Shown here: positions 4,532 through 60,757 of the stretch, one piece after another
How the letters are laid out: every line of letters starts with the position of its first letter
Numbering within the stretch: position 1 is the stretch's first letter
IMG/VR virus record: IMGVR_UViG_3300019845_000023
Coordinates: 5,058-69,057 of that record
Direction: 5' to 3' (one strand)
Length of the DNA stretch: 64,000 nt
DNA from: a virus
Taxonomy: Duplodnaviria; Heunggongvirae; Uroviricota; Caudoviricetes
Position numbers and translations under genes: made by a program
Notes under the pieces: generated by a model
What the model was told of the DNA's origin: nothing
Databases searched by the model: none
The model's input: only the letters and a program-made list of their open reading frames with translations

Positions 4532-4605
4532 TGGTTTCCCTTGCAGGAGTCGAACCTACATTATCTGTTTCAGAGACAGGCGTCCTACCATTAGACGAAA
4601 GGGAA
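4532..4605 (-). tRNA. tRNA-Gln (CTG)
   Basis: loop CUCUGAA. Confidence 0.6.
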
Positions 4606-8838: not shown

Positions 8839-8841
8839 ATA

Positions 8842-19391: not shown

Positions 19392-19393
19392 TT

Positions 19394-35741: not shown

Positions 35742-37148
35742 TCAATTTTCGCTGGGCTTTGCGCTTGAGTCCTTCTGGACGCCGAAGCCTTTCGCCATAA
35801 GCATTGCCATCAAAAAATCCTTATTGTCGCCGCCAGACTTATCGCTGAGCATAAGGAAAGGAAGCATTGCATTCATGTCCATTGTGCCGCCGTTAGCATT
35901 GTTCATCATAGAGAACATAAGCATAGAGCTCATATCTGTATTACCGTCGCTGAACATAAGGAAAGGAAGTATGTTGCCGAATGGATTCTCAGCATTTGCA
36001 TTTGTGCCGCCGAACATATCCATAGGTGTCATAATCTTAGTGTAGAAATCGAAACCGAAGATAGACTTCTTAGGTGCGAAAGTCTTGATTTCATTGCTCT
36101 TAGGCTCAACAGCAACGATAGCTGTCTTTGCGTTCTCCTTTACGACAAGAGGAGTTCTGTCAGCAGGGTGAAGGATTACATCACCAACTGCAAGCTGTGA
36201 CTTAGACACAGGCATTGCAAAGATAGGAATGTCCATTACCATATCAGATACATTGGTAAGTGAACCGTCCTCATTATATACGTTATATGTTACGCCGTCT
36301 TCTGCCTTAAAAGCGATACCGTTGAAAGAATACTTGATGGTATTTGTATCTACCTTACCGAACATAAAGTCGCCCATTAACTTTTTCATATTCATTGATT
36401 TTTCCTCCTTAATAACTTCTATACTTTTGCCATTTTTAAACACTATTTTAGGCTCTGAATTTACATCACTCAAAGAGAATGAATGTATTGCATCGCCTAT
36501 TGTTACTACGTCATCTTTCTTCACATAGAGTGAAGAAGGTTCGTATTTAACATATACTGGCTCACACTTTTTAATGTCGTAATCTATAATTTTAGACCAT
36601 GCGCCAAGTGCGCTAAGAGCCTCGAGTTTAGCAGGCATACACTTGTAATTAACGTCTCGAAATACTTCTAAGACCTGCATCCAGCTATCGCCATAAGGGT
36701 CTTTCTTAATTGTTCCCATAGACACGGAATCAACATCTGACAAATGCTGAGTTACACGAGCATTGGTCAATACCTTGATTTTGTCACCAACGGCTAAGCC
36801 ATTAAGTGTAGCAACTTCGTAGTAATAGACCTTTGCGTCAGGACTATAATTACCGTCTCTATTAGGGAAGATAGCTGCAATAAAATCGCCTTTAGCCATT
36901 TCTTCCTCCTTCTTTCCTGTTAATACTTCAAGATTAAAAGCTGGTGTGCTAAATGATACTGATATACTTTTATTGGTCTACCACGGCATTTCAAGCATAC
37001 CGCTGCAGGAACAAACTGAATCGTAAGAAGTCTCAACTTTTAGGTCTGAAACTTCCCCGAAGTCAATCTGAATTTTCTCGCCTTTTGAATTTGTGCCCCA
37101 ACCTATAAGTTTATAGGTCTATGGCATAGTAGGGTACTCACTGTACAT
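35742..37148 (-). CDS. hypothetical protein with Met-rich C-terminal repeats; N-terminal extension read through two in-frame TAG codons
   Basis: frame open from ATG 37148 (GGAGGA RBS) through TAG 37119-37121 and TAG 36978-36980 into the annotated MAKGD ORF. Confidence 0.45.
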
Positions 37149-37980
37149 TCTCATTCCTCCAGATTTCGTCGCTTAACGCACGCTTAATGATGAGGAATTT
37201 CTGCTCGTCCATACTGTCAAGAACAGACTGGTCAAAGTTTAGACCCTCTTCTCTGTACTTAGCGAGCCAAGCATCTGCCTCTTCAACGATACGCTTACCA
37301 AGGTCCTTAGCCTGAGCCGCAGAGTAGTTGATTTGTCTATCCTTAACACCAAGGATTTCACCCCAGTATCTCTGCATATTCAAGTCTGAACCCTTAAATG
37401 GGTTAAGAATGTACGCGTAGTCTTCCTGCTTAAATTTTGAAAGCATAGCAAGCAATCTCATTTCGTGAGAGAGCTGCTTTGAAGCATAACCGTACTTCTC
37501 GACTTCCTCGACCTGAACTGGATAAGGGTGGTCAAGAGCATTAAACTTTTCCTTAATCTGACCGACAATAGCCTTTAATGCAGACTCTTCATTTGCGTGT
37601 GCAATAGCGTCCCTATTAAGAATAAACCAGAACATAGGGCTGTAATCTGGATTTACCCAGAACCAGTCTGAGTAAAGAAGCTCAACAAAGTTTGAAGAAC
37701 CCTTCTTCCACTGGTCAACGATAAGACGAATGTCCTTAACATCGACCTGACCGTTGAAAGGCATTTCTTCAACATGGCTTACAGGCTTTGAGTTGAATAC
37801 AATATCCCTCAGTGAAGGAACGACAACTGCCTTGTAATCGTAGTCACTCTTAGGTCGTCTCAGATTGTAGTTCTGAGCACCGTATAGAGCGATAAAGATT
37901 ACATTAAAACCTCTTTTCTGAAGCTCCCTGACTGCAACGTGCATAAGCTCCTCTTCTGGCATTATCACTTTCTCGTCCAT
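37138..37980 (-). CDS. Pol-beta superfamily nucleotidyltransferase
   Basis: YGAQNYNLRRPKSDYDY = hG[GSA]x10SDhDh signature. Confidence 0.5.
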   Translation of the reverse strand: MDEKVIMPEEELMHVAVRELQKRGFNVIFIALYGAQNYNLRRPKSDYDYKAVVVPSLRDIVFNSKPVSHVEEMPFNGQVDVKDIRLIVDQWKKGSSNFVELLYSDWFWVNPDYSPMFWFILNRDAIAHANEESALKAIVGQIKEKFNALDHPYPVQVEEVEKYGYASKQLSHEMRLLAMLSKFKQEDYAYILNPFKGSDLNMQRYWGEILGVKDRQINYSAAQAKDLGKRIVEEADAWLAKYREEGLNFDQSVLDSMDEQKFLIIKRALSDEIWRNENVQ

Positions 37981-39967: not shown

Positions 39968-41431
39968 TTACTTCCAAGAATATACATCCTTAGAAAGTAT
40001 CTTGACCATAGCCTCATAAGCATTGCACTCGATGAGTTCTCTAAGGTCATTGAATGGACCTACACCAGAACCGCTGCAGTAACTGATGTTATCGTAGATA
40101 GTACCGATGTAGTTGTCCTGACGTGCCTCAACATTCCAGCTTACGACCTTAGTCTCAGGGAGACCAGCCTCGCGAAGCTTCTTGTTCCACTTACCGACAA
40201 TGGAGTCAGCAGTGTCTGGACGTACGTCGTAGTCGAACTGACCGTCTGATATAACTACAAGAGCCTTTGGAACCTCGCGGGTTCTTACAGCAGTCTTATA
40301 GATAAGCTCGAAAGCCTTATCAAGGTTAGTGTTGTAACCCATGTCAGTTGACATTACCTTTCTAAGACACTCCTCAAGTCCCCAGCTATCCTCGAGGGAT
40401 ATGAAGTGAGGATTGTTAGTGAATGTCATATAAAGGTTGTGGTATGCACCCTTATTACGCTGAGCGAAGTAAGTTGCAAGACCAACAGAAGTTGCCATAG
40501 GCTGACCTAACATGGAGCCAGATACATCTGCCATTACGACAACATCGTACTCTCCGCTAACGTAGTTAGGAAGAGCCTTCCACTGAGCTTCGTCTACAGG
40601 GTCAAGATGGTAACGAGAGCTACCATACATATACTTGTACACGATGTCGTATGGGTAAAGAGTAGAAGCATTTACCTTAGCCTCGCCCTTTTCAAGGGAA
40701 GCCTTGTAAGCTGCAAATCTCTCCTGACAACGCTTGTTGTAAGTCTTGATATATCTGCTCATTGCAACAGATGGAACAGACTGGAAGTCTATCTCATCCC
40801 ACTTACCAGCAGACATCTTTGTCTCGACGACGCCGATGTGTGCACGAAGCTTTGCAAGAGTCTTACGATATGTACGCTCGGTAAGACCGAGGTAACGACA
40901 AGCTCTACGACCAAGCTTACGAGTCTCCTGAGAAGAAGTATTGATAGATGGCATCCACTTAGCAAGGATGGAGATAGGCTGGTTCTTAGCCATACCCTCT
41001 GCATCAGCACGAAGCTGCTTGGAGATAAACTCCCATACCTTTGCCTCAATTACTGGATACTTTCCGTTAAGGAAGATGAAAAGGTCATCCCATCTACCTG
41101 TATCAACAATGGTCTGAAGATTGCGGACAATCTTCTGAGGGTCGATACGACCGAGTTCTGCAAGCAGAATACGACCGATACGTCTCTCACCAAGACCACA
41201 GTCTCTGATGTTACGAGCGTAAAGGATAAGGTTATCTGCAAGAGTAGGGTTCTCCTGTCTTGCTGCCTTCCAATCGCTGATTATAGCGGAAGCATCTCTC
41301 TTTCTCATACCACCTATCTTTGCATAGATGTCAAGAAGAGCGCCGCCGTTTGTTGAACTATATGCGAGTCCACCGTTTTCGGTAAGTGTCTGATTAGCCA
41401 TTGCCTTAGCTGCGTTTACGAAATTACTCAT
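39968..41431 (-). CDS. vWA-domain protein with large N-terminal domain (possible TROVE/Ro60-like)
   Basis: MIDAS motif DVSGSM; vWA fold at C-terminus; N-terminal helical domain; start at MSNF after GGAGAG RBS. Confidence 0.6.
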   Translation of the reverse strand: MSNFVNAAKAMANQTLTENGGLAYSSTNGGALLDIYAKIGGMRKRDASAIISDWKAARQENPTLADNLILYARNIRDCGLGERRIGRILLAELGRIDPQKIVRNLQTIVDTGRWDDLFIFLNGKYPVIEAKVWEFISKQLRADAEGMAKNQPISILAKWMPSINTSSQETRKLGRRACRYLGLTERTYRKTLAKLRAHIGVVETKMSAGKWDEIDFQSVPSVAMSRYIKTYNKRCQERFAAYKASLEKGEAKVNASTLYPYDIVYKYMYGSSRYHLDPVDEAQWKALPNYVSGEYDVVVMADVSGSMLGQPMATSVGLATYFAQRNKGAYHNLYMTFTNNPHFISLEDSWGLEECLRKVMSTDMGYNTNLDKAFELIYKTAVRTREVPKALVVISDGQFDYDVRPDTADSIVGKWNKKLREAGLPETKVVSWNVEARQDNYIGTIYDNISYCSGSGVGPFNDLRELIECNAYEAMVKILSKDVYSWK

Positions 41432-41470
41432 TACACATCTCTCCTTCAAGATAATTATTTTTGTTTGCTG

Positions 41471-42462: not shown

Positions 42463-42620
42463 ATGCTGCCCGAGACAGGAATCGAACCGTTACCCTCCGC
42501 CTTCTTCAGGCGGCGTGCACACCTATGCACTACAAGGGCAGTCTGGTCGGGGAGGATGGGATTCGAACCCACACTCATCGTGCTCCTAACGCATTAATTG
42601 AGTAGCTGACGTATCTTTAT
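42463..42620 (-). other. two degenerate tRNA-like segments (G33 loop, broken T-stem; 3' half without partner)
   Basis: partial cloverleaf elements only. Confidence 0.3.
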
Positions 42621-42696
42621 TGGTGCCGAGGGGGAGAGTCGAACTCCCTACGCCAAGCTCTTCAGGCTTGCGCTCTACCAGTTGAGCTACCTCGGC
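42621..42696 (-). tRNA. tRNA-Phe (GAA), second copy
   Basis: perfect acceptor; loop CUGAAGA. Confidence 0.6.
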
Positions 42697-42720
42697 ATTA
42701 TCAAGACAGTTATACTTATA

Positions 42721-42828
42721 AACTCTACCCGTTGAGCTACGCGACGCGAACGCCACGGTGGGATTCGAACCCACATCCCCCTTTGTGCAAAAAAGAAAAA
42801 GTTTTAAGTGTTTTGCTGAACTGCCTTA
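42721..42828 (-). other. orphan tRNA 5' half next to orphan T-arm/acceptor fragment
   Basis: GCGUCGCGUAGCUCAACGGGUAGAGU then UUAUAAG...UGUCUUGAUAAU. Confidence 0.3.
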
Positions 42829-42829
42829 T

Positions 42830-42906
42830 TGGTCGGGGCGGTGGGATTCGAACCCACAGAATCGTGATTTTGAGTCACGCACGTTTACCAGTTACGTCAC
42901 GCCCCG
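42830..42906 (-). tRNA. class-I-shaped tRNA with Leu anticodon CAA
   Basis: 5-nt variable loop; loop CUCAAAA; A73. Confidence 0.5.
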
Positions 42907-43033
42907 ATATAAAATGCAAAATATGAAGAGGATACCACACCCTGCAGAGGCCCATATTTATTTATATCCCGCACCATAAGCTTCTTCGCGCTTCAATCCG
43001 TCGACTGTCCTCATGGCCATCCGTGCGGTTTTC

Positions 43034-43109
43034 TGGGTGGAAAGATGAGATTCGAACTCACACCTTCATGGGCCACAACCATGCGCTCTACCATTAAGCT
43101 ACTCACCAC
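43034..43109 (-). tRNA. tRNA-His (GTG) with encoded G-1
   Basis: loop UUGUGGC; C73; extra 5' G. Confidence 0.6.
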
Positions 43110-43143
43110 ATCAATTCCGACTTTAACCCAAGTCGGCAGGGTT

Positions 43144-43176
43144 AAATAAAACCAAATCTGCCTCCACACAGTGGAG
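43144..43176 (-). terminator. rho-independent terminator inside tRNA array 2
   Basis: CUCCAC-UGU-GUGGAG then GCAGAUUUGGUUUUAUUU. Confidence 0.45.
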
Positions 43177-43216
43177 TTAGCTGTAGACAATAGCACTGAA
43201 CATAACTATTCCTACT

Positions 43217-43292
43217 TGGTCTCGGTTATAGGACTCGAACCTATGACTTTCTCCTTGTAAGGGAGACACTCTCGCCGCTGAGTTAAACCGAG
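43217..43292 (-). tRNA. tRNA-Val (TAC)
   Basis: loop CUUACAA. Confidence 0.65.
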
Positions 43293-43321
43293 ATTATCAA
43301 GACTCTCTATACCTTGCGGTT

Positions 43322-43394
43322 CCGGAAGGGGGATTCGAACCCCCATATGTACGATTTTAGGTCGTATGACTTAGCCACTTTGTCTATTCTGGAA
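43322..43394 (-). tRNA. class-I-shaped tRNA with anticodon TAA and C33
   Basis: loop CCUAAAA; no encoded CCA. Confidence 0.4.
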
Positions 43395-43541
43395 AGGAAT
43401 ATTGCTGAAGAGTCTTTATTTGGTTCGGGTATGCTTATCGGAGTCAAGTACTCGCAGTTCCTCTTTCGAGGTATTTTCTTCGGAGTAAAGACCTTAAGGT
43501 TCGCGTAACCTCTCGTGCCCTAACCCATATCCGAAACCCGA

Positions 43542-43618
43542 TGGTGCCGTTAGAGGGACTCGAACCCACACTAACCAGTTCCTAAGACTGGCGCCTCTGC
43601 CAATTGGGCTATAACGGC
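43542..43618 (-). tRNA. class-I-shaped tRNA with Leu anticodon TAG
   Basis: perfect acceptor; loop CUUAGGA. Confidence 0.5.
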
Positions 43619-43682
43619 ATTGTTAAACAGTTCGAGTTACGGTCAAACTGAAGGTAAGCACCGATTAAGCAGCCAGATACTC

Positions 43683-43913
43683 CTATTCAGAATAATCAAG
43701 CTTTTCAATTCTTTTCATATCGGAATATGTAACCTGCTTCCAACCACTCTTAGGGTGGTTAAAGGCACACATCCAGCAGGAACAATGAATTTTACCTTTG
43801 GCTAACTTTCCGTCGCAATCACAAAACCAATGATGAGTTTCATCAATGATATGTCTTTTGCGAGCTATGTGTTGTCTTCTCTGATAACGATAGTATGCTC
43901 TATCTCTTTCCAT
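43683..43913 (-). CDS. Cys/His-rich small protein
   Basis: ORF track; embedded in tRNA array. Confidence 0.4.
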   Translation of the reverse strand: MERDRAYYRYQRRQHIARKRHIIDETHHWFCDCDGKLAKGKIHCSCWMCAFNHPKSGWKQVTYSDMKRIEKLDYSE

Positions 43914-44053
43914 TGTGCCGCCCTCCGAAAAATTATAATAACGAATATAGGCAACCCACTACTTACTTTCCTTACCAGCGTAAATTAAGCACCTTCGCTA
44001 CGTATTGCTACTACCTCAGTATTTAATTTACTATGCCCTTCCCTCGATATTCG

Positions 44054-44575
44054 TTACTTAGTAATTCTGTTTGCGATACCAGAAGCAGCGTAGCTGTCTG
44101 GCTTGATAGCAACCTCGAAGCCGCAAGTCTTAATCCAAGAGGTAATCTCAGTAATAAGCTGATTTGTCTTACCTGCGTGACCAATGTCAGCGTGGACAGC
44201 GAAAGTAAATCTTCCGTCATTAGACATTTGCTCAAGGTCAATATCATAGTCGATAAGAGCATAAGCAAGAGCATCTACGAAACCTGTTGCGTTCTCAATA
44301 GAACGAGAAGTCTCTTCCTGTATCTTAGTCTTAAGAACTCTTATCTTTGGTATATCTTGCTTGCGATAGAAGAAAATGCCGCCATCACCGATACGGTGAA
44401 CAGCAATTACTTCCACCATTCTTGTGCACTTGTGGTTCTGGCTATCTGTACCCACAGTTATTTCGTATGAGGCGTTAGGTGCCTTTGCGATGTAGTCGGC
44501 TACAATAGAGCCTATCTGTGAATAACGAACCTTCTCACCATTACCACGAGTAAATATCTTCTCGGTAATCACGGT
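44054..44575 (-). CDS. hypothetical protein (possible RNase H-like fold)
   Basis: ORF; probable GTG start after AAGGAG. Confidence 0.4.
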   Translation of the reverse strand, partial: TVITEKIFTRGNGEKVRYSQIGSIVADYIAKAPNASYEITVGTDSQNHKCTRMVEVIAVHRIGDGGIFFYRKQDIPKIRVLKTKIQEETSRSIENATGFVDALAYALIDYDIDLEQMSNDGRFTFAVHADIGHAGKTNQLITEITSWIKTCGFEVAIKPDSYAASGIANRITK

Positions 44576-44728
44576 TAATCTCTCCTTTATATTCAAATAT
44601 TCAAGACAGTTATGTTAGCTACCTTTTGATTAAAATTCAAATGCTTTTAAAGAATTGCTGGACTGTCTTAGTGGTGATAATACGTGCCGCGGCACCACAG
44701 ACCGCTATATGTGGTCGCACGTATTCTC

Positions 44729-44815
44729 TGGTCGGCTCGGTGGGACTCGAACCCACACGCCCTTGCGGGCACCAGCTCCTTAGGCTGGCGCGTCTGCCAA
44801 TTCCGCCACGAGCCG
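44729..44815 (-). tRNA. tRNA-Leu (AAG), class II
   Basis: long variable arm GCCC-UUGC-GGGC; loop CUAAGGA. Confidence 0.55.
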
Positions 44816-44883
44816 ATTTATCAAGACTCATCTTGTGTTTTTATATGCCCAAAAAACTTTCAGAGTTGCTGCTGAGTCTTATC

Positions 44884-44960
44884 TGGTCGGAGATGCGGGA
44901 CTCGAACCCACGGCCTCTCGCTCCCAAGGCGAGCGCTCTACCAAACTGAGCTAATCCCCG
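44884..44960 (-). tRNA. tRNA-Pro (TGG), second copy
   Basis: loop CUUGGGA. Confidence 0.6.
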
Positions 44961-45030
44961 ATTAATTGGCGGCTTCAGGGACGCTACAAGATAACCAACC
45001 GCCAGAGTTATCACGCACTTAATGTCCCAA

Positions 45031-45107
45031 TGGTCGGCGAGATGGGATTCGAACCCACACTGAATGGATTTTAAGTCCATTGCCTCTGCCTGTTGCGCTA
45101 CTCGCCG
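45031..45107 (-). tRNA. class-I-shaped tRNA with Leu anticodon TAA
   Basis: perfect acceptor; loop CUUAAAA. Confidence 0.5.
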
Positions 45108-45174
45108 ATAAGCCTATTAAATAGGCTACAAGATATAACCCCTTTTACCGCGGGGCAGTCTCCCCAATATAATT

Positions 45175-45227
45175 GGTTGGGGAGATAGGAATTGAACCTA
45201 CAAAAGTGAGTTGCTGATATATCTTAG
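45175..45227 (-). other. orphan tRNA 3' fragment (T-arm plus acceptor CUCCCCA-A-CCA)
   Basis: GUAGGUUCAAUUCCUAU T-arm without a 5' partner. Confidence 0.3.
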
Positions 45228-45303
45228 TGGTCACGCCAGCGAGGCTCGAACTCGCATTTTAGCCTTGAAAGAGCTACTTCCTACACCTGTTAGAAGATGG
45301 CGC
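45228..45303 (-). tRNA. tRNA-Glu (TTC)
   Basis: loop CUUUCAA; Glu-like D region. Confidence 0.5.
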
Positions 45304-45324
45304 GATTCATCAAGATGTGCTTTT

Positions 45325-45400
45325 ACCTCTCATGAGGATTTGAACCTTACCGTCCCCTTTTTGGGGCTGTGCTACCAGATTACACCATAACGCCGAGAGG
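45325..45400 (-). tRNA. tRNA-like gene with atypical anticodon arm (CCCC-AAAAA-GGGG)
   Basis: good acceptor and T-arm; anticodon not assignable. Confidence 0.35.
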
Positions 45401-45456
45401 ATTTAAAATGGCGGCGTTAAAAACTTTAAAGAAAAAGTTGCTGACACATCTTTATT

Positions 45457-45530
45457 TGGTTGCGCAGACAGGACTCGAACCTATATCAACGGATAATGAC
45501 TCCGTTATGCTACCTTTGCACTACCGCGCG
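45457..45530 (-). tRNA. tRNA-Met-like (CAT) with C1-A72 mismatch (initiator-like?)
   Basis: stem ACGGA/UCCGU; loop GUCAUUA. Confidence 0.45.
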
Positions 45531-45539
45531 TTCTCTTTA

Positions 45540-45587
45540 TTTTCTATAATTATTATAGCATAAATTATAAAAAATGTCAAATTTTTG
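45540..45587 (-). promoter_or_regulatory. promoter block TTGACA-17-TATAAT within tRNA array
   Basis: AAATTTGACATTTTTTATAATTTATGCTATAAT. Confidence 0.6.
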
Positions 45588-46381
45588 ATTTCTAAGTCAT
45601 TTCGTAAGCACTCTCACCGCGTGAAGGTAGACTTAATTGAGAGTATTTCTTCAACAATCTTGGGTGCCGCCACATCTCCTGCACACAGGAGACAGGGTAC
45701 TCGAACCCCTCCATCGCCAGTTGCTGAAAGGAATTTCAACCTAATCTCATTAGTTATAAAGCCACTGAGCTGTAGCTATGCGAATAATTTGCCGCAATCA
45801 ACGGGCGACTATTCTAATCGCCGTCATAACCAACACAAGTTATGAACCATTGTAATGTCGTCAGGTTCCCACACTTACGCAGTAAACGCGCCGCTTAACC
45901 ACTTGGTTTAGGTATGTTCATAACCAAGAAATTTTCCCTTTTACATCGTCAGCAGTAGATGTCGTAATTTTATCGGTACTTCCCCGAATGGACATTGCGT
46001 GCCTATCGTACTCACGGTAATGTACGTAACCGCTGCCGTGCCAGCCAATACACGGATTTATACTGCCATCACACAGTCGGGCAGGTCTGTGATGGGTCTC
46101 TGCCCAATTTGGTTTTTGTGGTTTTAAACAGTCCAATGAGTAAACCTCAACTCAACTGTAGAGAATATTTGGTGGTTCGCTCTCTCTCAGCGAAGGTGTA
46201 AAGGGAGTTTAAACCACTTCCTCGTGGGGTTTTAACGTCTTTTCCTTGACAAGTCTCGCCGCAACCAGTACCATTTAAGGTACGCCAATCACTACGGGTT
46301 GCACATCCTTACTTTACCTGCCCAACAGGTCGGCGGTTGGACCCGCCAGTGTCCCTTTTATTCTCTTTAAGTAATTGGCAA

Positions 46382-46456
46382 TGGTGTGGGATAGGAGAAT
46401 CGAACTCCCACCGCCTGTTTGGAAGACAGGAATACTGACCGTTATACGAATCCCAC
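46382..46456 (-). tRNA. tRNA-Gly (TCC)
   Basis: perfect acceptor; loop CUUCCAA. Confidence 0.7.
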
Positions 46457-46469
46457 ATTAGTTCTTATT

Positions 46470-46518
46470 TTTAAGTATAATTTATTATAACATATTCTAA
46501 GAAAAAAGTCAAATTTTT
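46470..46518 (-). promoter_or_regulatory. promoter block variant within tRNA array
   Basis: TTGACT-17-TATAAT. Confidence 0.55.
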
Positions 46519-46528
46519 AATAGTGATT

Positions 46529-46654
46529 GTCTTTGTAGGGGTCTGTCTTCTTCTTATCATGGGTTGCGGCGATGATGTCTGGCATAACCTCTATGAGCTT
46601 CCAAAGAAGTACGGTTACGCAAACAACTATTAGGTACTGCATCAGACAGACCTC
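46529..46654 (-). CDS. small membrane peptide (41 aa)
   Basis: hand translation; AAGGAGG RBS. Confidence 0.35.
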
Positions 46655-46666
46655 CTTTCAAGACAT

Positions 46667-46743
46667 TGGTTTCTCCGCTTGGATTCGAACCAAGGAATGG
46701 CAGTTTTAGAGACTGCTGTCTTAAGCCTCTTGACGACGGAGAA
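46667..46743 (-). tRNA. amber suppressor tRNA (anticodon CTA), Glu/Gln-type body
   Basis: perfect acceptor UUCUCCG/CGGAGAA; stem GCAGU/ACUGC; loop CUCUAAA; D-arm UCGUCAAGAGGCUUAAGACA. Confidence 0.65.
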
Positions 46744-46747
46744 TTAT

Positions 46748-46822
46748 GGTTGCCGCTCTGGGAATCGAACCCAGTAAGACGGAGTTAGAGTCCGTTGTCC
46801 TCGCCAACTAAACGAAGCGGCA
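46748..46822 (-). tRNA. amber suppressor tRNA (anticodon CTA), Glu-type body
   Basis: perfect acceptor UGCCGCU/AGCGGCA; stem ACGGA/UCCGU; loop CUCUAAC. Confidence 0.65.
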
Positions 46823-46907
46823 AAATTCTCCAAGACGCCTTTACATTTACCTTTTAAACATTTTAAGTGTTCTATTGTAAGAAATGATTGCAGGATGCGT
46901 CTTTCAT

Positions 46908-46955
46908 TCTTATAAAATAATTATAACATATTTTATAAAAATTGTCAAATTTTTG
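46908..46955 (-). promoter_or_regulatory. promoter block variant
   Basis: TTGACA...TATAAT. Confidence 0.5.
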
Positions 46956-46963
46956 AGTGCTTA

Positions 46964-47227
46964 TTAGTCTACAGCAGTTGTAGTAGTTGTCTCTGTTGTA
47001 GTCTCTTCTGCCTCAGTTTCTGTGGTAGTAGTTGTTTCTTCGGTAGCCTCAGTTGTCTCCTCTGCTACTGTTGTAGCTTCAGTTGTTTCAGCTTCTGTTG
47101 TTTCAACTTCTGTTGTAACTACTGTTGTGGTTTCACTGTTGCTTCCGCTATCCTTTGATGTATCGCAAGAAACAAAAGTTACAGCCATAGCGCCTGCCAT
47201 AAGACAAGCTAAAATAGCCTTCTTCAT
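46964..47227 (-). CDS. Thr/Glu-rich lipoprotein
   Basis: signal peptide with lipobox-like Cys. Confidence 0.5.
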   Translation of the reverse strand: MKKAILACLMAGAMAVTFVSCDTSKDSGSNSETTTVVTTEVETTEAETTEATTVAEETTEATEETTTTTETEAEETTTETTTTTAVD

Positions 47228-47580
47228 TGTGTTTCACCTCTTTGCTTTTTAAATAAGAACCCTTGCTTGTATATCGAAACCTCGTATTATATCCACAGTC
47301 ACATCGTGATTTACTCCCACACAAGAGGGCTACCATGGAGAAGGGGCACGCCCCGAGATGGGCGGCAATAATCATAGAACGCTATACGAAAAGCATAACG
47401 TACTAAGGAACTCTTTCCACACGTGGTGGATGAGCTATCGTATTTCTACGACCCCGCACAGCGGGTAGAAGTCATAATGACCTCTTAACAGTAATTTTGA
47501 TTGAGCCGCGTTTCCTCTTTTAAGTCTGACTAACTGCGGTAAAAAATCCAGACTTCAAAATTACTTTTAAGAAATCATTA

Positions 47581-47675
47581 TGGCGCGGTCGGGGAGACTC
47601 GAACTCCCACACCGATTGCTCGATTACTCATAGTTTAGCAAACTACTGCCTTACCAAATTAGGCTTACGACCGCA
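47581..47675 (-). tRNA. tRNA-Ser (GCT), class II
   Basis: perfect acceptor; loop UUGCUAA; long variable arm. Confidence 0.55.
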
Positions 47676-47807
47676 TTATCAAGATACGTTTTTTCGATAT
47701 ACGTTGTTCTACCAGTTGAACTACTCCGCCATATTGGCGACGGAGGCAGGACTTGAACCTACACCTACGGCGTGATAGGCAATCTATTGCTTGCTGACGT
47801 ATCTTAG
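47676..47807 (-). other. orphan tRNA 5' half with leader module plus orphan 3' fragment
   Basis: GGCGGAGUAGUUCAACUGGUAGAAC...AAAAAACGUAUCUUGAUAAU; T-arm GUAGGUUCAAGUCCUGC. Confidence 0.35.
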
Positions 47808-47809
47808 TT

Positions 47810-47887
47810 TGGTGTGCCTGATGGGACTCGAACCCATGACCCCCTGATTAAAAGTCAGGTGTTCTATGCCAACTGAACTACAGGCAC
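47810..47887 (-). tRNA. tRNA-Lys (TTT)
   Basis: perfect acceptor; loop CUUUUAA. Confidence 0.7.
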
Positions 47888-47986
47888 ATTAACATCCGCT
47901 GAGCATCTTATTGGAACGCTTTCACCATGCGAGACCTCTATTGTTTATTTGCTGGCAGAATTTGAACCATTAACCATAGCGAATAT

Positions 47987-48062
47987 TTGGTGGGACGCCT
48001 GAGATTCGAACTCAGATAAGCTCGGTTATGAGCCGAGTGCACTAACCATTGTACTAACGTCC
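47987..48062 (-). tRNA. tRNA-Ile2/Met (CAT), Ile-derived body
   Basis: anticodon arm CUCGG-CUCAUAA-CCGAG parallels tRNA-Ile(GAT) at 5981. Confidence 0.55.
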
Positions 48063-48119
48063 CATTAAAGAAAGGAAAGGGGCATACTTTCAAGATGGCT
48101 ATGCCAGACCACTAAGTTA

Positions 48120-48193
48120 TTGGCTTCGGCAAAGGGAGTCGAACCCCTATCAACAGAGCCAAAATCTGTTGTCCTACCATTAGACGATACCGA
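48120..48193 (-). tRNA. tRNA-Gln (TTG)
   Basis: loop UUUUGGC; D region shared with Gln(CTG) at 4532. Confidence 0.6.
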
Positions 48194-48222
48194 AATCTAT
48201 GGAGTCATAAAGACTCCAAATA

Positions 48223-50702: not shown

Positions 50703-50745
50703 TGATTATATAAATATTATATCACAGAAAAAATAAAAAGTCAAG
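50703..50745 (-). promoter_or_regulatory. weak promoter variant
   Basis: CTTGACT...TGATATAAT with altered spacer. Confidence 0.35.
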
Positions 50746-50783: not shown

Positions 50784-51278
50784 TTAACCAGTAATAGCTT
50801 CCTCTATACCACCTGGTGTAGTCTCAACTTCGTCATCAAGCTCATCAGCAAGCTCTTTAATCTGAGCCTGAATGAGTCCACGCTGATGTTCAAGTATTGT
50901 CTTGACTGTTGCAGCATAGCTGCCGTCTGCCCAGTCCTTAATCTCCGCGTCAATATTACCAAAGTTAAAGCTTGTATCGCCAACCTTAATAATGACATCC
51001 TTCTTCTTTGTTTCAAGGTTCTCAAGCATACGATTAATCATCGCAGCCTTCTTAGAGAGCTTGCAAATCTGTGCTTCCTTACTGTTCTTTCCTGGCTCTG
51101 GCTCAGGTTCTGGCTGAGGAGGGAAAGGAGGGAAAGGAGGAGGAGGACATGGAGGAACTGGAGGGAATGGATAATCTGGTGGCATTGGAGGGAATGGAGG
51201 GCAAGCTGGTCCTAAGTACATACCAACGTCGCCGCACTTACAGCCGTTCTTTTTAGAATAATCTGGATACTGATACAT
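50784..51278 (-). CDS. Pro-rich hypothetical protein
   Basis: ORF; PPxP repeats. Confidence 0.5.
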   Translation of the reverse strand: MYQYPDYSKKNGCKCGDVGMYLGPACPPFPPMPPDYPFPPVPPCPPPPFPPFPPQPEPEPEPGKNSKEAQICKLSKKAAMINRMLENLETKKKDVIIKVGDTSFNFGNIDAEIKDWADGSYAATVKTILEHQRGLIQAQIKELADELDDEVETTPGGIEEAITG

Positions 51279-51396
51279 ATCAGAGTTCTAAGGCTTATCA
51301 ATATTTGGCATTAAAATTCCCCCTATAAATAAATTAGGGTATCCGAAGATACCCTTCTTATATAAGGTAAAAATTGCCTTTGGGAATTATAATCTT

Positions 51397-52320
51397 TTAG
51401 TGCGCCGCCTTATCAGCTTCGTGAAGACGCTCAAGGTCACGCATAAAGTCTGCACTATAACGAGCTGCCATCTTCTCCATATACTTCTCGCCCTTGTAGT
51501 GGTCCATATGGTGGTTGATTAAAAGAACGATATAGTGATTACGGTCAGAGCAACCAGTATGAGATAAGTAGAAGTATGCTCCTACATTCTCATGGTTATA
51601 GAAGTGTGCCTCTTCTGTAGGGTTGTTGCGAGCGTCGTGATAAACCTTGCAGTAAGGCTTACCAATATCGTGGAAGAGTGCCGCAGTTCTTACTAAGTCA
51701 GAACGAGTTGAGTCTCTTACTGTCTTATTCATCTCGTCAACGATATACTTCTCTGCCGCTCTCATATGTGCGCCGATAGTTAAAGAGTGGTGATGATTAT
51801 CGTGAGGGATATTATCAGCTTCGAAAAGCATTTCTCCTATTACATCGAAGTTATTATCATTACCGAAAGTCATTATCTTATCCCAACCCTCAGAGTAGTC
51901 AGGTACCTCGAAGCTTCTAAGCATACGGTCGAGAACGAACTCAGGAACGACACGCTCACGGGAAGCATTACGCTCCTTTACAACCTCGAAAGGAGGTACG
52001 CAAAGAACGCATATCTTTACAAGGTCAGGTATCTTAGATAACTCCTTTAAGAAGCCTATACGACGCTTAGCATTGACGTTTGTTGCGTCATAGTAAACAT
52101 CGACATTAGCCTTTAAAAGGTCGCGAGTACGAGTTAACATTAAGTTGAATACTTCTGCGTTATGAGTCTGGTCATTAACGTCTCCAAATACGTCCTGCCG
52201 TATCTGGTCAGAAGATACATAAGCTGCTTCAGAGAAGTAAGCCTTATATAAAGTAGACTTACCAGAGCCAGGGAGTCCTACAGTGAAAAATAATCTTGGC
52301 ATATTTAGTCTCCTTTCCAT
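51397..52320 (-). CDS. polynucleotide kinase fused to an HD phosphohydrolase
   Basis: N-terminus LFFTVGLPGSGKST...SSDQIRQDVFG matches T4 Pnk kinase; C-terminal H..HD motifs. Confidence 0.65.
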   Translation of the reverse strand: MERRLNMPRLFFTVGLPGSGKSTLYKAYFSEAAYVSSDQIRQDVFGDVNDQTHNAEVFNLMLTRTRDLLKANVDVYYDATNVNAKRRIGFLKELSKIPDLVKICVLCVPPFEVVKERNASRERVVPEFVLDRMLRSFEVPDYSEGWDKIMTFGNDNNFDVIGEMLFEADNIPHDNHHHSLTIGAHMRAAEKYIVDEMNKTVRDSTRSDLVRTAALFHDIGKPYCKVYHDARNNPTEEAHFYNHENVGAYFYLSHTGCSDRNHYIVLLINHHMDHYKGEKYMEKMAARYSADFMRDLERLHEADKAAH

Positions 52321-56825: not shown

Positions 56826-56872
56826 TTTGATATAAAAATTATATCATAAAAGAAAGGGAAAGTCAAATAATT
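56826..56872 (-). promoter_or_regulatory. weak promoter variant
   Basis: TTGACT...TATAAT-like. Confidence 0.35.
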
Positions 56873-56874: not shown

Positions 56875-57906
56875 TTATCCCTTTCTGATGTTATATCCAT
56901 ACTGGTCGGAGTGATAAAATTCTATCCAGTATTTTTCTTTTTCGGTCTGTTCTTCTTTTGGGCAAACCTCTACGATTTCCCAAGTGAAGTTCTCCAAACC
57001 TTCTTTGAACATAGCGTCATAGATTTGACCAGCTATTCGTTCAATATTACAGCCGCGCTTAGCATGGGTACGCCAACGGTCTATAAACTTTGTTGTTTTA
57101 CCAATATAAACTTTTTCATCATTTATATTAGTAATCTTATAAATGCCGCCCTTATCTTTCTTGTCACCAAGAACTCGTTTAAAGAGCTCCTCTATTTGAG
57201 TTTTATAGTAAGTCTCATATAGGAGTTTATAAAAGATTTCTGGACGGGAGAAGCCAGGTGCCATAGACTTTAACTTAGCTATATCTGAAAGAGTTAAAGT
57301 ATCGAGAGTAATGTGATAGAAGTCGCGTTGCTTACGAACTTCCTCATCTTTCTTAAACTAAGCTACGATTGCCGCCTGTCTTTGTTCAAAGGCTTTAATT
57401 TCTTCAGTCAACGCCGCCTTTTTCAAATTTATTTCGTCGCTGAACGTCTAAAAATTTACAGCCAACTGCTCCTTATCTTTCTCATATTGAGCCTGAACAC
57501 CAGCTATCTTCTTTTCTCGTTCTGCTGTCGCCGCGGCAACGATTTCAGCATTTTCTTTTTGACGCTCAAGTTCAGCTTCCCTATCCATTTTAGCATACTC
57601 TTCACGAGTTGCTATATATTGTGCGTCAAGTCTTTGTACATCGGTATTATATTGAGCTTTCTTCTCTTCGAGCATACAGGTGTATTCTCTTAATGATGCC
57701 TGTTTTCCTGCAATCTCCTTTTGGATTTCATCCGTCATTTCCTTGACGGCGGCATCTTTCTTCTCAATAAGTCCTTTCTTAACTTTCTCCTATTCGGAAG
57801 AAAACTTTAGCTTACCTTTAAGAGACTTAACCGATAGAATATCGCAGACGGCATATGTAATGCCGCCACACACGATACCAAGTAATATGACCAATATCCA
57901 TATCAT
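56875..57906 (-). CDS. TM helix, coiled coil and GIY-YIG nuclease fusion read through three in-frame TAG codons
   Basis: ATGA overlap at 57906; TAGs at 57790-57792, 57448-57450, 57358-57360; no TAA/TGA over 344 codons; GIYKITN..YIGKT motif in C-terminal part. Confidence 0.5.
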
Positions 57907-59821: not shown

Positions 59822-60322
59822 TTAGATAGTGCGGAAGTGGTTATATTTTCCATCTCCCCACCATTGGTTGCAAGTCCAGCCTGCAAATGTGTCGGGGTTG
59901 TTAAAGTAATAATCTACAGCGTCTGCCATCGCTGAGTAATGGATTGAGCCGCCGCAGAAATAATCTGAATATTTATTAAATCCCCAAGGAGCACAAGTCT
60001 GGTCGAGTACTGCTTCAACCGAACCAGGCCAACGAGAATCATTTACCATATTCATTACTGAAGCTACGATTTTTGCTCTTTCGTAGACATCAGGCATTCC
60101 ACCGTATTCACTTGCGACAATCTTGCAAAGCAATGTGTAATCATAATCGCTAACTACAGGAGCGGTTGCATTGCTTACATACGGATTTACTATTTCTAAA
60201 TTTGGATTACATTCGCTACATTTTCTACACTCAATATCGTTTGTATCTGTGATTTCATAACAAGTTGAATCAACCCAGTGACAAGTTGACTTATGTATAT
60301 AGTGTGTACTTGGTTTGTACAC
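59822..60322 (-). CDS. SleB-like cell-wall hydrolase (candidate lysin)
   Basis: Cys-rich N-terminus; RWPGSVEAVL..QF..W motif. Confidence 0.4.
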   Translation of the reverse strand: MYKPSTHYIHKSTCHWVDSTCYEITDTNDIECRKCSECNPNLEIVNPYVSNATAPVVSDYDYTLLCKIVASEYGGMPDVYERAKIVASVMNMVNDSRWPGSVEAVLDQTCAPWGFNKYSDYFCGGSIHYSAMADAVDYYFNNPDTFAGWTCNQWWGDGKYNHFRTI

Positions 60323-60346
60323 TGTGTACTCTCTTGGTGTCTCTGC

Positions 60347-60757
60347 CTATGTTGGTGCCGCTTCAGTAACTTCGGCAGTTGTTACTGGTGCCGCCGGCTC
60401 AGTTTCTTCAACTGAGGAAGTGGATGTGCTTGTGAGTGTTGTAGTTGTGGATGTGCTTGTGAGCGAAGTTGTGGATGTGCTTGTGGTTGTAGTTGAGGTA
60501 ACAGTGGTAGCTGTTGTGACTGGAGTTGTTGTAACTACTGTTGTAGTTGTTGACTCAGTTATTTCAGTAACCATTGCCGCCTTTACTGGCAGGTTTGTGC
60601 CGTGAGCTTTGTCAGTTCTTACCACGGTAGGTGTCGCTAAACAAAGCACGACAGCAGCTGCAAGAACTGCTGTCGCAACCTGAATTGTTCTTTTTACAGT
60701 TATTTTCATTATAAATTCCTCCTTTTCGTCCTTGCGGACTATGAGGGGAACACGCAT
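60347..60757 (-). CDS. Thr-rich secreted (mucin-like) protein
   Basis: signal peptide; (T/S/V) repeats. Confidence 0.45.
   Translation of the reverse strand: MRVPLIVRKDEKEEFIMKITVKRTIQVATAVLAAAVVLCLATPTVVRTDKAHGTNLPVKAAMVTEITESTTTTVVTTTPVTTATTVTSTTTTSTSTTSLTSTSTTTTLTSTSTSSVEETEPAAPVTTAEVTEAAPT

What the first reader, a model, noticed from the sequence alone, without database searches (positions are those of the whole stretch)
46667..46822. Two adjacent amber-suppressor tRNAs (anticodon CUA)
On the minus strand there are two well-formed 75-77-nt tRNAs at 46667-46743 and 46748-46822. Both have perfect 7-bp acceptor stems and 5-bp anticodon stems. Their 7-nt anticodon loops are CUCUAAA and CUCUAAC, which puts CUA at positions 34-36 with U33 and A37. 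Their D-arms (UCGUC..AG(G/A)AC) resemble the Glu/Gln-type tRNAs elsewhere in the array. They look like anticodon-switched members of that family rather than degraded genes.

This pairs with the in-frame TAG codons found in three genes in this window, and suggests programmed TAG readthrough or recoding.
Basis: seen in the sequence. Interest (0 to 1): 0.92.

Follow-up and report, generated by a model that had tools for sequence, protein, structure and literature searches.

The report
Two amber-suppressor tRNAs, recoded phage
The two tRNA genes are real amber suppressors in a large gut-type phage that reads the stop codon TAG as glutamine; this kind of phage code change is already well documented, so this is a clean new example and not a new phenomenon.

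Summary
Confirmed. ARAGORN and the Rfam tRNA model both call two canonical tRNAs on the minus strand, 3 nt apart: SupB (46747-46822) and SupA (46667-46743). Both have CUA at positions 34-36, U1-A72, A73 and an encoded CCA.

Orthologues in related IMG/VR phage contigs keep the anticodon loops while the stems change by compensatory substitutions. The genes are therefore under selection.

The window is 100% identical to two JGI contigs of one phage genome of about 169 kb or more. That genome has at least 49 tRNAs and a tmRNA. TAG is used as a sense codon:
- Seven in-frame TAGs lie in four window genes, each spanned by orthologues.
- Thirty lie in four large genes just beyond the window, including 13 in one 1183-codon ORF.

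TAG stands for Gln:
- In relatives it aligns with Gln at 16 of 31 conserved sites (background 2.6%).
- It exchanges mainly with CAA and CAG in 85-87% identical orthologues.
- Counting it as Gln restores the normal Gln frequency in the recoded genes.

Both anticodon loops are one G36A step from tRNA-Gln(CUG) loops in the same arrays, as in supE. A perfect extended -10 sigma-70 promoter lies 98 nt upstream.

This matches published code-15 phages, some of which carry 2-3 Sup-CTA genes. Verdict: interpretation supported; new member of a known kind.

The parts
46747..46822 (-). SupB: amber-suppressor tRNA(CUA), 76 nt. Loop CUCUAAC, U1-A72, G2-C71, A73, encoded CCA. It is the 5' member of the tandem pair.
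   Evidence: ARAGORN. Rfam tRNA 53.4 bits with CUA at 34-36. Orthologues L001_8409, L002_5394 and L016_5755 have compensatory acceptor-stem and anticodon-stem changes and an invariant loop.
46667..46743 (-). SupA: amber-suppressor tRNA(CUA), 77 nt. Loop CUCUAAA, U1-A72, U2-A71, C3-G70, A73, encoded CCA. It starts 3 nt (UAA) downstream of SupB.
   Evidence: ARAGORN. Rfam tRNA 55.4 bits. Orthologues L001_7888 and L002_4814 have compensatory T-stem changes. L038 has the identical anticodon arm on a UGGGG... acceptor stem, which I recognise from memory as typical of tRNA-Gln. The only deposited-phage match is an annotated tRNA-Gln.
46920..46948 (-). Consensus extended -10 sigma-70/sigma-A type promoter (TTGACA-17-TATAAT with TG), 98 nt upstream of SupB. 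It presumably drives the SupB-SupA unit.
   Evidence: 12 of 12 consensus match. It is one of 32 exact copies of TTGAC-N15-TGNTATAAT on the coding strand, with 0 expected by chance. Function is inferred, not shown.
56875..57906 (-). TM + coiled-coil + GIY-YIG protein gene (343 codons) with three in-frame TAGs at 57790, 57448 and 57358.
   Evidence: Translation. Pfam GIY-YIG. The full-length L003 orthologue (48% identity) has 13 in-frame TAGs and ends on TAA. The L004 homologue is uninterrupted.
59822..60757 (-). Membrane-anchor + Ser/Thr-rich linker + cell-wall-hydrolase-like domain gene (311 codons) with one in-frame TAG at 60347, between the linker and the catalytic domain.
   Evidence: Translation. 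The uninterrupted L003 orthologue aligns across the TAG (43% over 250 aa). That orthologue hits Pfam Hydrolase_2 (PF07486) at 36.2 bits against a cut-off of 27. The window copy itself has no Pfam hit.
35742..37154 (-). Gene of unknown function (470 codons) with two in-frame TAGs at 37119 and 36978, in its N-terminal part.
   Evidence: Both TAGs are conserved as TAG in L015 (90% aa identity over 474 aa). L016 has sense codons there (AAT, TAT; 41% identity over 500 aa).
50784..51311 (-). Pro-rich protein gene of unknown function (175 codons) with one in-frame TAG at 51288, codon 8.
   Evidence: Orthologues start at the same MPN(I/V/L)D motif and carry CAT (L015), CAC (L016) or TAC (L003) at the TAG position.
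4532..4605 (-). Phage tRNA-Gln(CUG). Loop CUCUGAA, U1-A72, U2-A71, C3-G70, A73. This is the closest canonical counterpart of SupA (one G36A step in the loop; same first three acceptor pairs and discriminator).
48121..48194 (-). Phage tRNA-Gln(UUG), U1-A72, G73. It is the second canonical Gln isoacceptor, in the same array as the suppressors.

Best explanation
SupB and SupA are two functional, non-identical amber-suppressor tRNAs. They derive from tRNA-Gln, like supE (anticodon CUG changed to CUA). They belong to a large phage of about 169 kb or more whose relatives come from gut metagenomes, and this phage uses TAG as a glutamine codon (genetic code 15).

Proposed mechanism:
1. The pair is transcribed as one precursor from its own consensus host-type sigma-70 promoter, in a region packed with such promoters.
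2. The precursor is processed to two CCA-ended tRNAs.
3. Host enzymes charge them with Gln, either GlnRS or non-discriminating GluRS plus GatCAB. Both routes read the weak U1-A72 pair.
4. The charged tRNAs outcompete release factor 1 at UAG.
5. Genes with in-frame TAGs can then be translated in full. These are four genes in the window, including a membrane-anchored SleB-type peptidoglycan hydrolase homologue, plus large genes just outside the window that carry about 11 TAGs per 1000 codons.

Shown here: the tRNAs, their conservation, sense-TAG use, and TAG = Gln. Inferred: promoter use, the charging route, competition with RF1, and any timing role.
For: The tRNAs are genuine and canonical.

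Selection on them:
- The loops are invariant and the stems covary in relatives.
- 18 of 19 pairs show compensatory changes.

Same genome: the window is 100% identical to JGI Ga0315743_100004 and Ga0315743_100088.

Sense TAG:
- The window GIY-YIG gene has 3 TAGs and its L003 orthologue has 13, all TAG, ending on TAA.
- L057 ORFs have 13, 9, 5 and 3 TAGs in 1183, 711, 499 and 380 codons.

TAG = Gln:
- 16 of 31 conserved-context sites are opposite Gln, against a 2.6% background (p about 1e-17).
- In 85-87% identical orthologues, 20 TAGs are conserved.
- This genome's TAG is CAA in L059 at 3 sites.
- L059's TAG is CAG or CAA here at 8 sites in the orthologous alignments, from the per-site list. 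That call's pooled codon-pair tally (CAG 8, CAA 3) also counts paralogue and off-frame alignments.
- Gln codons plus TAG come to 29 per 1000 codons in the recoded genes, against 28 per 1000 in standard window genes. CAG is specifically depleted.

Gln-type bodies:
- U1-A72 is restricted in the array to the Gln tRNAs, the suppressors, one CAU tRNA and His.
- The loops are one G36A step from Gln(CUG) loops.
- SupA matches an annotated phage tRNA-Gln.
- U1-A72 is a Gln determinant for GlnRS, GluRS2 and the amidotransferase (PMC9976931).

Promoter.

Precedent: TAG-to-Gln recoded phages with Sup-tRNA(CUA) (bioRxiv 10.1101/2021.08.26.457843; PMC9523058, abstract seen). Phages with 2-3 tRNA-Sup-CTA genes (PMC10607447).
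Against: - The window's own seven sense TAGs lie in variable positions. They align with Q, H/H/Y, N, Y, T, F and R/A in orthologues, so Gln at those particular sites is not shown directly.
- The E. coli Gln identity set is only partly met. Both have A73, not G73. Pairs 2-71/3-70 are U-A/C-G in SupA and G-C/C-G in SupB. Position 38 is A or C, not U.
- A73 with U35 can favour Lys insertion in E. coli, and K is the second commonest residue opposite TAG.
- Whole-body similarity to tRNA-Gln is modest, at most 73%. SupA's closest neighbour is the phage's own tRNA-Cys.
- No release factor or aaRS gene was found in the roughly 78 kb I could read.
- A few window genes appear to end on TAG, so TAG may still terminate early in infection.
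- There are no expression, charging or proteomic data.
Confidence: 0.88

Rival explanations
1. The two suppressors are not redundant. One, most plausibly SupA, is charged with an amino acid other than Gln (for example Lys through A73 plus U35). In that case TAG is decoded ambiguously, or differently at different times.
For: - SupA and SupB are only 66% identical.
- SupA's D arm and anticodon stem are nearly identical to the phage's tRNA-Cys.
- Both have A73, and the tRNA identity review reports that amber suppressors with U35 and A73 insert Lys in E. coli.
- K, E and Y also appear opposite TAG.
- L015's SupA-type tRNA has a long variable arm.
- The tandem order SupB-type then SupA-type recurs in the distant or unrelated phages L038 and L047.
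Against: - Gln dominates opposite TAG in every comparison, and in close orthologues the exchanges are mainly with CAA or CAG.
- K and E are the usual evolutionary neighbours of Q.
- The phage's own tRNA-Gln(CUG) also has A73 and the same first three acceptor pairs as SupA.
- At the syntenic site L015 keeps only a SupA-type gene and L016 only a SupB-type gene. Both still have TAG opposite Gln. This suggests either tRNA suffices.
- SupA lacks the Cys determinants: U73 and the GCA anticodon are both absent.
Confidence: 0.07
2. TAG is still a stop codon in this phage. The suppressors give only low-level programmed readthrough that makes minor C-terminally extended isoforms, or they rescue accumulated nonsense mutations.
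For: - In the window TAG is rare inside genes (7 sites).
- Several ORFs end on TAG with a backup stop 1-11 codons later.
- The standard code fits most of the window.
Against: - Genes with 9-13 in-frame TAGs cannot be made by inefficient readthrough.
- 20 TAGs are conserved as TAG between 85-87% identical orthologues whose surrounding protein sequence is conserved on both sides.
- Counting TAG as Gln restores the Gln frequency in these genes.
Confidence: 0.03
3. They are tRNA-Pyl genes, as ARAGORN's label says, or non-functional tRNA-like relics.
For: ARAGORN prints 'tRNA-Pyl' for any CUA anticodon.
Against: - The cloverleaf is canonical, with G18G19, a TTCGA T-loop, a 5-bp anticodon stem and a 4-5 nt variable loop. 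From general knowledge, tRNA-Pyl lacks these features.
- No pyl genes appear among the annotated window proteins.
- Strong conservation with covariation argues against relics.
Confidence: 0.01

Closest known systems
TAG-to-Gln (genetic code 15) recoded gut phages with phage-encoded Sup-tRNA(CUA): crAss-like, Lak, Agate and similar clades (Borges et al., bioRxiv 10.1101/2021.08.26.457843; Peters et al. 2022, PMC9523058)
   Same: - In-frame TAGs in phage genes, with TAG aligning to Gln.
- A phage-encoded CUA tRNA in a tRNA array.
- The code-change tRNAs sit in a region compatible with the standard code.
- A lysis-type gene (SleB-like hydrolase homologue) and large genes that look fibre-like by eye carry recoded codons.
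- The relatives come from human faecal metagenomes.
   Different: - There is no close sequence relative among deposited phages. Clade placement is unknown because no terminase or capsid gene was reachable.
- The heavily recoded operon sits behind the same early-type sigma-70 consensus promoter as the standard-code genes.
- No RF2 or aaRS was seen in the part I could read.
Phassvirus group (phAss-1, BK046881, BK025033; PMC10607447)
   Same: Genomes larger than 130 kb from the human gut, with roughly 30 tRNAs (28 and 32 reported for two of them), TAG-to-Gln recoding in about 40 ORFs, and two or three tRNA-Sup-CTA genes per genome. No dedicated aaRS.
   Different: No detectable nucleotide similarity to the window in the deposited-phage collection. 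This genome has more tRNAs (at least 49) plus a tmRNA. Whether their suppressors also form a SupB-type then SupA-type tandem was not checked.
E. coli supE (glnV amber suppressor, tRNA-Gln CUG changed to CUA)
   Same: The same single G36A anticodon change on a tRNA-Gln(CUG)-type loop. A weak U1-A72 first pair, G10, U35 and A37. Expected to be charged with Gln.
   Different: These are natural, conserved phage genes present as two diverged paralogues, not a laboratory or host mutation. They have A73 where E. coli has G73. Pairs 2-71 and 3-70 differ (SupB keeps G2-C71). Position 38 is A or C.

Membership tests
Canonical elongator tRNA (Rfam RF00005) | Full-length cloverleaf match above the gathering score, with a 7-nt anticodon loop | tested here: met
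   55.4 and 53.4 bits against 29. Model positions 1-71 of 71 are matched, no non-canonical pairs are flagged, and CUA is at 34-36.
Canonical elongator tRNA (Rfam RF00005) | Structure maintained by compensatory substitutions in homologues | tested here: met
   18 of 19 pairs show changes on both sides across 11 suppressor sequences.
Genetic code 15 (TAG = Gln) phage | In-frame TAG codons inside conserved protein-coding genes that end on TAA or TGA | tested here: met
   Four window genes. L057 ORFs with 13, 9, 5 and 3 TAGs. 20 TAGs are conserved between orthologues.
Genetic code 15 (TAG = Gln) phage | TAG positions correspond to Gln in homologues | tested here: met
   16 of 31 conserved-context sites. 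Exchanges with CAA or CAG dominate in close orthologues. The Gln frequency is restored when TAG is counted as Gln.
Genetic code 15 (TAG = Gln) phage | Phage-encoded suppressor tRNA with anticodon CUA | tested here: met
   Two such genes.
Genetic code 15 (TAG = Gln) phage | Recoded codons concentrated in late, structural or lysis genes, with the code-change genes in standard code | tested here: inconclusive
   TAG density is about 11 per 1000 codons in four large genes outside the window. In the window only 7 sense TAGs occur, all in four genes, and the 89 standard-code ORFs (14,828 codons) contain none. One recoded gene is a Hydrolase_2 homologue. The large genes have no family match, and they lie behind the same promoter type as the early-type genes.
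Genetic code 15 (TAG = Gln) phage | Host uses the standard code | not testable with these tools
   The host was not identified.
tRNA-Gln identity set (E. coli: G73, U1-A72, G2-C71, G3-C70, G10, U34/C34, U35, G36, A37, U38; PMC9976931) | U1-A72 first pair. It is also the determinant for GluRS2 and the amidotransferase in the indirect pathway. | tested here: met
   Both suppressors have U1-A72.
tRNA-Gln identity set (E. coli: G73, U1-A72, G2-C71, G3-C70, G10, U34/C34, U35, G36, A37, U38; PMC9976931) | G73 discriminator with G2-C71 and G3-C70 | tested here: not met
   Both have A73. SupA has U2-A71 and C3-G70. SupB has G2-C71 and C3-G70. The phage's own tRNA-Gln(CUG) also has A73, U2-A71 and C3-G70, so the E. 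coli rule may not apply in this system.
tRNA-Gln identity set (E. coli: G73, U1-A72, G2-C71, G3-C70, G10, U34/C34, U35, G36, A37, U38; PMC9976931) | G10, U35 and A37 present (G36 is necessarily A36 in an amber suppressor) | tested here: met
   Read from the sequences. Position 38 is A (SupA) or C (SupB), not U.
tRNA-Pyl | Atypical tRNA body (short D loop without G18G19, 6-bp anticodon stem, 3-nt variable loop; from general knowledge) together with pylS and pylBCD genes | tested here: not met
   The body is canonical. No pyl genes appear among the annotated window proteins.

The most novel reading that the evidence does not exclude
The SupB-type then SupA-type tandem (loops CUCUAAC then CUCUAAA, 3-4 nt apart in the window and L038) may be a conserved, portable two-tRNA code-switch cassette. 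It recurs in distantly related or unrelated phages (the window, L038, GC-rich L047). Its two members may not be redundant: they could use different charging routes or amino acids, work best in different codon contexts, or resist host anticodon nucleases differently. In this reading, sense TAGs act as a translational timer for a peptidoglycan hydrolase and large fibre-like genes that are transcribed from early-type host promoters.
Probability: 0.12. Interest if true: 0.6.

Novelty: new member of a known kind. Interest (0 to 1): 0.3.

Why it matters
Practical consequence: this genome and its relatives must be annotated with translation table 15. The public standard-code gene calls break the 1183-codon gene and its neighbours into 35-226 aa fragments.

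Biologically, it adds a large, tRNA-rich lineage with no deposited relative to the set of TAG-to-Gln recoded phages; its relatives come from gut metagenomes.

It also offers a natural comparison series for how recoding spreads once suppressors are present:
- This genome is lightly recoded in the genes it shares with its relatives; L003, L008 and L016 are recoded more heavily in those same genes.
- At the same syntenic site there are two suppressor types in the window, one type in L015 and the other type in L016.

None of this changes current understanding of phage stop-codon recoding.

Tried and rejected
- Megablast of 5 kb around the tRNAs against deposited phages gave only stray tRNA hits. 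Protein-mode search with the DUF2828 protein reached at most 38% identity, to human-faecal and Bacillus phages, so no clade could be assigned.
- An exact SupB pattern was absent from IMG/VR. Exact-product look-ups failed for two window ORFs, probably because of start-codon choice or a cut gene.
- PHROGs and Pfam gave nothing for three of the four TAG-bearing window genes or for the four large recoded genes. A PDB sequence search with the hydrolase-like domain gave only noise.
- Nearest-neighbour isotype assignment over 257 unique tRNAs gave only modest Gln enrichment (5 of the top 20). I used it as weak support only.
- The base after sense TAGs (A14, G11, T6, C6) is close to that after CAA/CAG in the same genes, so no special context was found.
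- I tested whether recoded genes lack early-type promoters. They do not: one sits at L057 1525.
- tRNA-Pyl, pseudogene and low-level-readthrough readings were considered and rejected (see rivals).
- About 90 kb of the genome remains unread, so I could not look there for RF2, GlnRS, terminase or capsid genes. The host was not identified.

Full report
**Observation**

ARAGORN finds 44 tRNAs and one tmRNA in the window, all on the minus strand, in two arrays (2884-8918 and 42465-48194). Two of the tRNAs have anticodon CTA: 46667-46743 (77 nt, called SupA here) and 46747-46822 (76 nt, SupB). ARAGORN prints 'Pyl' for any CUA anticodon.

The Rfam tRNA covariance model matches both over its full length, at 55.4 and 53.4 bits against a gathering score of 29. 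No pair is flagged non-canonical. The 7-nt loops CUCUAAA and CUCUAAC place CUA at positions 34-36.

Read from the sequence:
- Both have perfect 7-bp acceptor stems and 5-bp anticodon stems.
- Both have U33, A37, G18G19 and a TTCGA T-loop.
- Both have U1-A72, discriminator A73 and an encoded CCA.
- The two genes are separated by 3 nt (UAA).

**Are they under selection?**

Scanning IMG/VR with the SupA anticodon arm found two related contigs of 186 kb and 94 kb (L001, L002). Each carries two CUA tRNAs and a tmRNA.

The SupA orthologues keep the loop and have a doubly compensated T-stem (CUUGG/CCAAG in the window, CUGCG/CGCAG in L001). The SupB orthologues (L001, L002, L016) have compensated acceptor and anticodon stems and an invariant CUCUAAC loop. 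Across 11 suppressor sequences, RNAalifold recovers the cloverleaf, with changes on both sides at 18 of 19 pairs. These are functional tRNA genes, not relics.

**What genome is this?**

All long ORFs are on the minus strand. The annotated products are typical auxiliary genes of a large phage:
- ThyX and a 5'-nucleotidase.
- Rnl1-like and Rnl2-like RNA ligases and a kinase+HD protein.
- UvrD, HNH and GIY-YIG nucleases.
- A DUF2828/VWA protein and an SPFH protein.

There is no close relative among deposited phages.

The window is 100% identical to two contigs of JGI metagenome 3300029969: Ga0315743_100004 (140.5 kb) and Ga0315743_100088 (28.8 kb). Together they imply a genome of about 169 kb or more. 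Five further tRNAs lie just beyond the left end of the window. Many relatives come from IMG sample 3300045988, which one paper describes as a human-faecal co-assembly.

**Is TAG a sense codon here?**

Most window ORFs fit the standard code. Four genes nevertheless contain in-frame TAGs, and each is spanned by orthologues.

1. Gene 56875-57906 (TM + coiled coil + GIY-YIG) has TAGs at 57790, 57448 and 57358. Its L003 orthologue (48% identity, full length) has 13 internal stops, all TAG, and ends on TAA. A more distant homologue in L004 is uninterrupted.
2. Gene 59822-60757 has a TAG at 60347. The L003 orthologue is one uninterrupted ORF aligning on both sides of that position (43% over 250 aa). 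It has a lipoprotein-type signal, a Ser/Thr-rich linker and a Pfam Hydrolase_2 (SleB-type cell-wall hydrolase) domain at 36.2 bits against a cut-off of 27. The window copy itself has no Pfam hit.
3. Gene 35742-37154 has TAGs at 37119 and 36978. Both are conserved as TAG in L015 (90% identity over 474 aa) and replaced by sense codons in L016.
4. Gene 50784-51311 has a TAG at 51288. Orthologues have CAT, CAC or TAC there.

The decisive evidence lies just beyond the right end of the window, in the same genome (L057 1-9079). Four TAA/TGA-bounded ORFs of 1183, 711, 499 or more (cut by the locus end) and 380 codons contain 13, 9, 5 and 3 in-frame TAGs. The public standard-code gene calls split them into fragments of 35-226 aa. 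A gene with 13 TAGs cannot be made by occasional readthrough. This is codon reassignment.

**Which amino acid?**

Three independent lines point to Gln.

- *Conserved-site tally.* I ran an all-against-all BLASTP of TAA/TGA-bounded ORFs (TAG written as X) from the window and every fetched locus. I kept only sites with at least 6 of 10 identical flanking residues. TAG lies opposite Gln at 16 of 31 such sites, against a background of 2.6% (binomial p about 1e-17). K and E follow. One example is TSYFYQIRFFTPNI in the window against TSYFYXIRFFTPNI in both L015 and L016.
- *Close orthologues.* Between this genome (L057) and L059, orthologues are 85-87% identical. L059 comes from the 186-kb contig that also carries SupA and SupB.
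  - 20 TAGs are conserved as TAG.
  - This genome's TAG is CAA in L059 at three sites with perfectly conserved context.
  - L059's TAG is CAG or CAA here at eight sites in the orthologous alignments, from the per-site list.
  - All other partners occur once or twice.
  - The pooled codon-pair tally also counts paralogue and off-frame alignments.
- *Codon budget.* The four recoded flank genes have TAG 30, CAA 40 and CAG 10 in 2750 codons.
  - With TAG counted as Gln the frequency is 29 per 1000 codons.
  - Without it the frequency is 18 per 1000.
  - The 89 standard-code window ORFs have 28 per 1000.
  - In those ORFs CAG is the preferred Gln codon (314 against 105 CAA).
  - CAG is one C-to-T step from TAG and is the codon that is depleted.

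The seven TAGs inside the window itself sit in variable positions and do not show Gln on their own.

**What are the tRNAs derived from?**

- Within the array, U1-A72 occurs only in tRNA-Gln(CUG), tRNA-Gln(UUG), the two suppressors, one CAU tRNA and His.
- SupA shares its first three acceptor pairs (UUC/GAA), A73 and the UCGUC D-stem start with the phage's tRNA-Gln(CUG).
- Across the fetched phage arrays, tRNA-Gln(CUG) loops are CUCUGAA or CUCUGAC. SupA (CUCUAAA) and SupB (CUCUAAC) are each one G36A step away, the supE change.
- The only similarity in deposited phages is SupA to an annotated tRNA-Gln.
- Other IMG/VR suppressors with the SupB loop sit on UGGGG... acceptor stems, which I recognise from memory as typical of tRNA-Gln.
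- U1-A72 is a Gln determinant for GlnRS, and for GluRS2 and the amidotransferase in the indirect pathway. Amber suppressors with a weak 1-72 pair tend to insert Gln (PMC9976931).

Caveats:
- A73 and pairs 2-71/3-70 do not match the E. coli Gln set.
- A73 with U35 can favour Lys in E. coli.
- Whole-body similarity to Gln tRNAs is modest.
- SupA's 5' half is nearly identical to the phage's tRNA-Cys.

**Are both needed?**

At the syntenic site (Gln-UUG, Met, Ser-GCU, then suppressor), L015 has only a SupA-type gene, which carries a 17-nt variable-arm insertion. L016 has only a SupB-type gene. The window has both. L015 and L016 both have TAG opposite Gln, which suggests redundancy. Only 21 kb of each of those contigs was read, so this is not firm.

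The same 5'-to-3' tandem order, SupB-type then SupA-type, also occurs in L038 (4-nt spacing), which is only remotely related to this phage. It occurs again in the unrelated GC-rich L047, where the two ARAGORN calls overlap by 3 nt. L055 has a comparable Gln(UUG)-then-Gln(CUG) tandem.

**Expression**

A 12-of-12 sigma-70 consensus promoter with a TG extension lies at 46948-46920, 98 nt upstream of SupB. It is one of 32 exact copies of TTGAC-N15-TGNTATAAT on the coding strand, with none expected by chance. The window is therefore a dense region of units that are presumably read by the host polymerase, and the suppressor pair has its own unit.

The heavily recoded operon outside the window also starts with such a promoter (L057 1525). 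Transcription type therefore does not separate standard-code genes from recoded ones. In-frame TAGs could themselves delay translation until the suppressors accumulate. That is inference in line with the published model, not something shown here.

**Comparison with what is known**

- TAG-to-Gln recoding with phage-encoded Sup-tRNA(CUA) is well documented in gut phages (bioRxiv 10.1101/2021.08.26.457843).
- It has been confirmed by metaproteomics in crAss-like phages (PMC9523058, abstract seen).
- Genomes with two or three tRNA-Sup-CTA genes have been described (phAss-1 and relatives, PMC10607447).
- Suppressor tRNAs were found in about 60% of the jumbo phage genomes that use alternative genetic codes (PMC13037316).

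The present case is a new, well-supported member of that kind, in a lineage without deposited relatives. It is not a new mechanism.

**Verdict**

Novelty: new member of a known kind. Interest: about 0.3.

Noticed in passing
window, minus strand; for example 249-277, 7077-7105, 12846-12874, 34338-34366, 45552-45580, 46484-46512, 46920-46948, 62474-62502: There are 32 exact copies of an extended -10 sigma-70/sigma-A consensus promoter (TTGAC-N15-TGNTATAAT), all on the coding strand, with 0 expected by chance. They correspond to the repeated intergenic element of about 50 bp that is also seen in relatives.
   Followed up: partly
window 42465-42540, 42830-42906, 43318-43393, 43542-43618, 45031-45107 (compare 44729-44815): Five tRNAs with Leu anticodons (AAG, CAA, UAA, UAG, UAA) are class I, 76-77 nt with a short variable arm. 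Only one tRNA-Leu is the normal long-arm type. Two of the five lack an encoded CCA, one scores only 33.7 bits, and one has the loop CCUAAAA. Relatives have long-arm versions of some of them.
   Followed up: partly
window 7500-7585; L015 3618-3711; L001 5775-5865; L002 2701-2791: Long variable arms appear on isotypes that normally lack them: tRNA-Asn(GUU) of 86 nt in the window, tRNA-Cys of 91 nt in L001 and L002, and a 94-nt SupA-type suppressor in L015. The L015 suppressor's T-arm is identical to that of its neighbouring tRNA-Ser.
   Followed up: partly
window 46667-46743 compared with 8189-8263: SupA's D arm and anticodon stem are almost identical to the phage's own tRNA-Cys(GCA), while the acceptor stem and T arm differ. 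This hints at a chimeric or shared origin.
   Followed up: no
window 12482-12827; L001 7441-7791; L002 4350-4717; L032 8349-8721: The phage encodes a tmRNA (tag ADYAIAA, Rfam 123.6 bits). Relatives carry tmRNAs too, and in L001 and L002 the tmRNA lies directly next to a suppressor tRNA.
   Followed up: no
window 18261-19418, 33373-34305, 51397-52320, 11934-12464, 39968-41449: The window has an RNA-repair style gene set: Rnl1-like and Rnl2-like RNA ligases, a kinase+HD protein, an AAA_33 kinase and a DUF2828/VWA protein. These sit alongside the tRNA arrays.
   Followed up: no
window 56875, 59822, 35742 and 50784 (gene ends), next to promoters at 56838-56866, 59653-59681, 35659-35687 and 50716-50744: All four TAG-bearing window genes are the last gene before the next consensus promoter. 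By a rough estimate this has a chance of about 0.01, assuming about 30% of genes occupy that position. It may limit polar effects of termination at TAG. The recoded operon outside the window does not follow this pattern.
   Followed up: partly
window TAGs at 11618, 12923 and 50122: Three apparently genuine genes (99, 237 and 187 aa) end on TAG, with a backup TGA or TAA 1, 11 and 9 codons downstream. TAG may therefore still terminate before the suppressors accumulate. No orthologues were available to test this.
   Followed up: partly
L057 1-8755 (same genome, beyond window position 64000) compared with the window ORFs: Gln codon preference shifts sharply. Window genes use CAG over CAA at 3:1. 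The recoded large genes have CAA 40, CAG 10 and TAG 30.
   Followed up: yes
window 5787-5873 and 7119-7207: Both tRNA-Tyr genes have C1-G72, the pair listed as a Tyr determinant for archaea and eukaryotes in PMC9976931. Several other tRNAs in the array also start with C1-G72.
   Followed up: no
window 46517-46642 (minus strand): A 41-aa hydrophobic ORF with a GGAGG ribosome-binding site starts 24 nt after SupA and lies before the next promoter. It appears to be co-transcribed with the suppressor pair.
   Followed up: no
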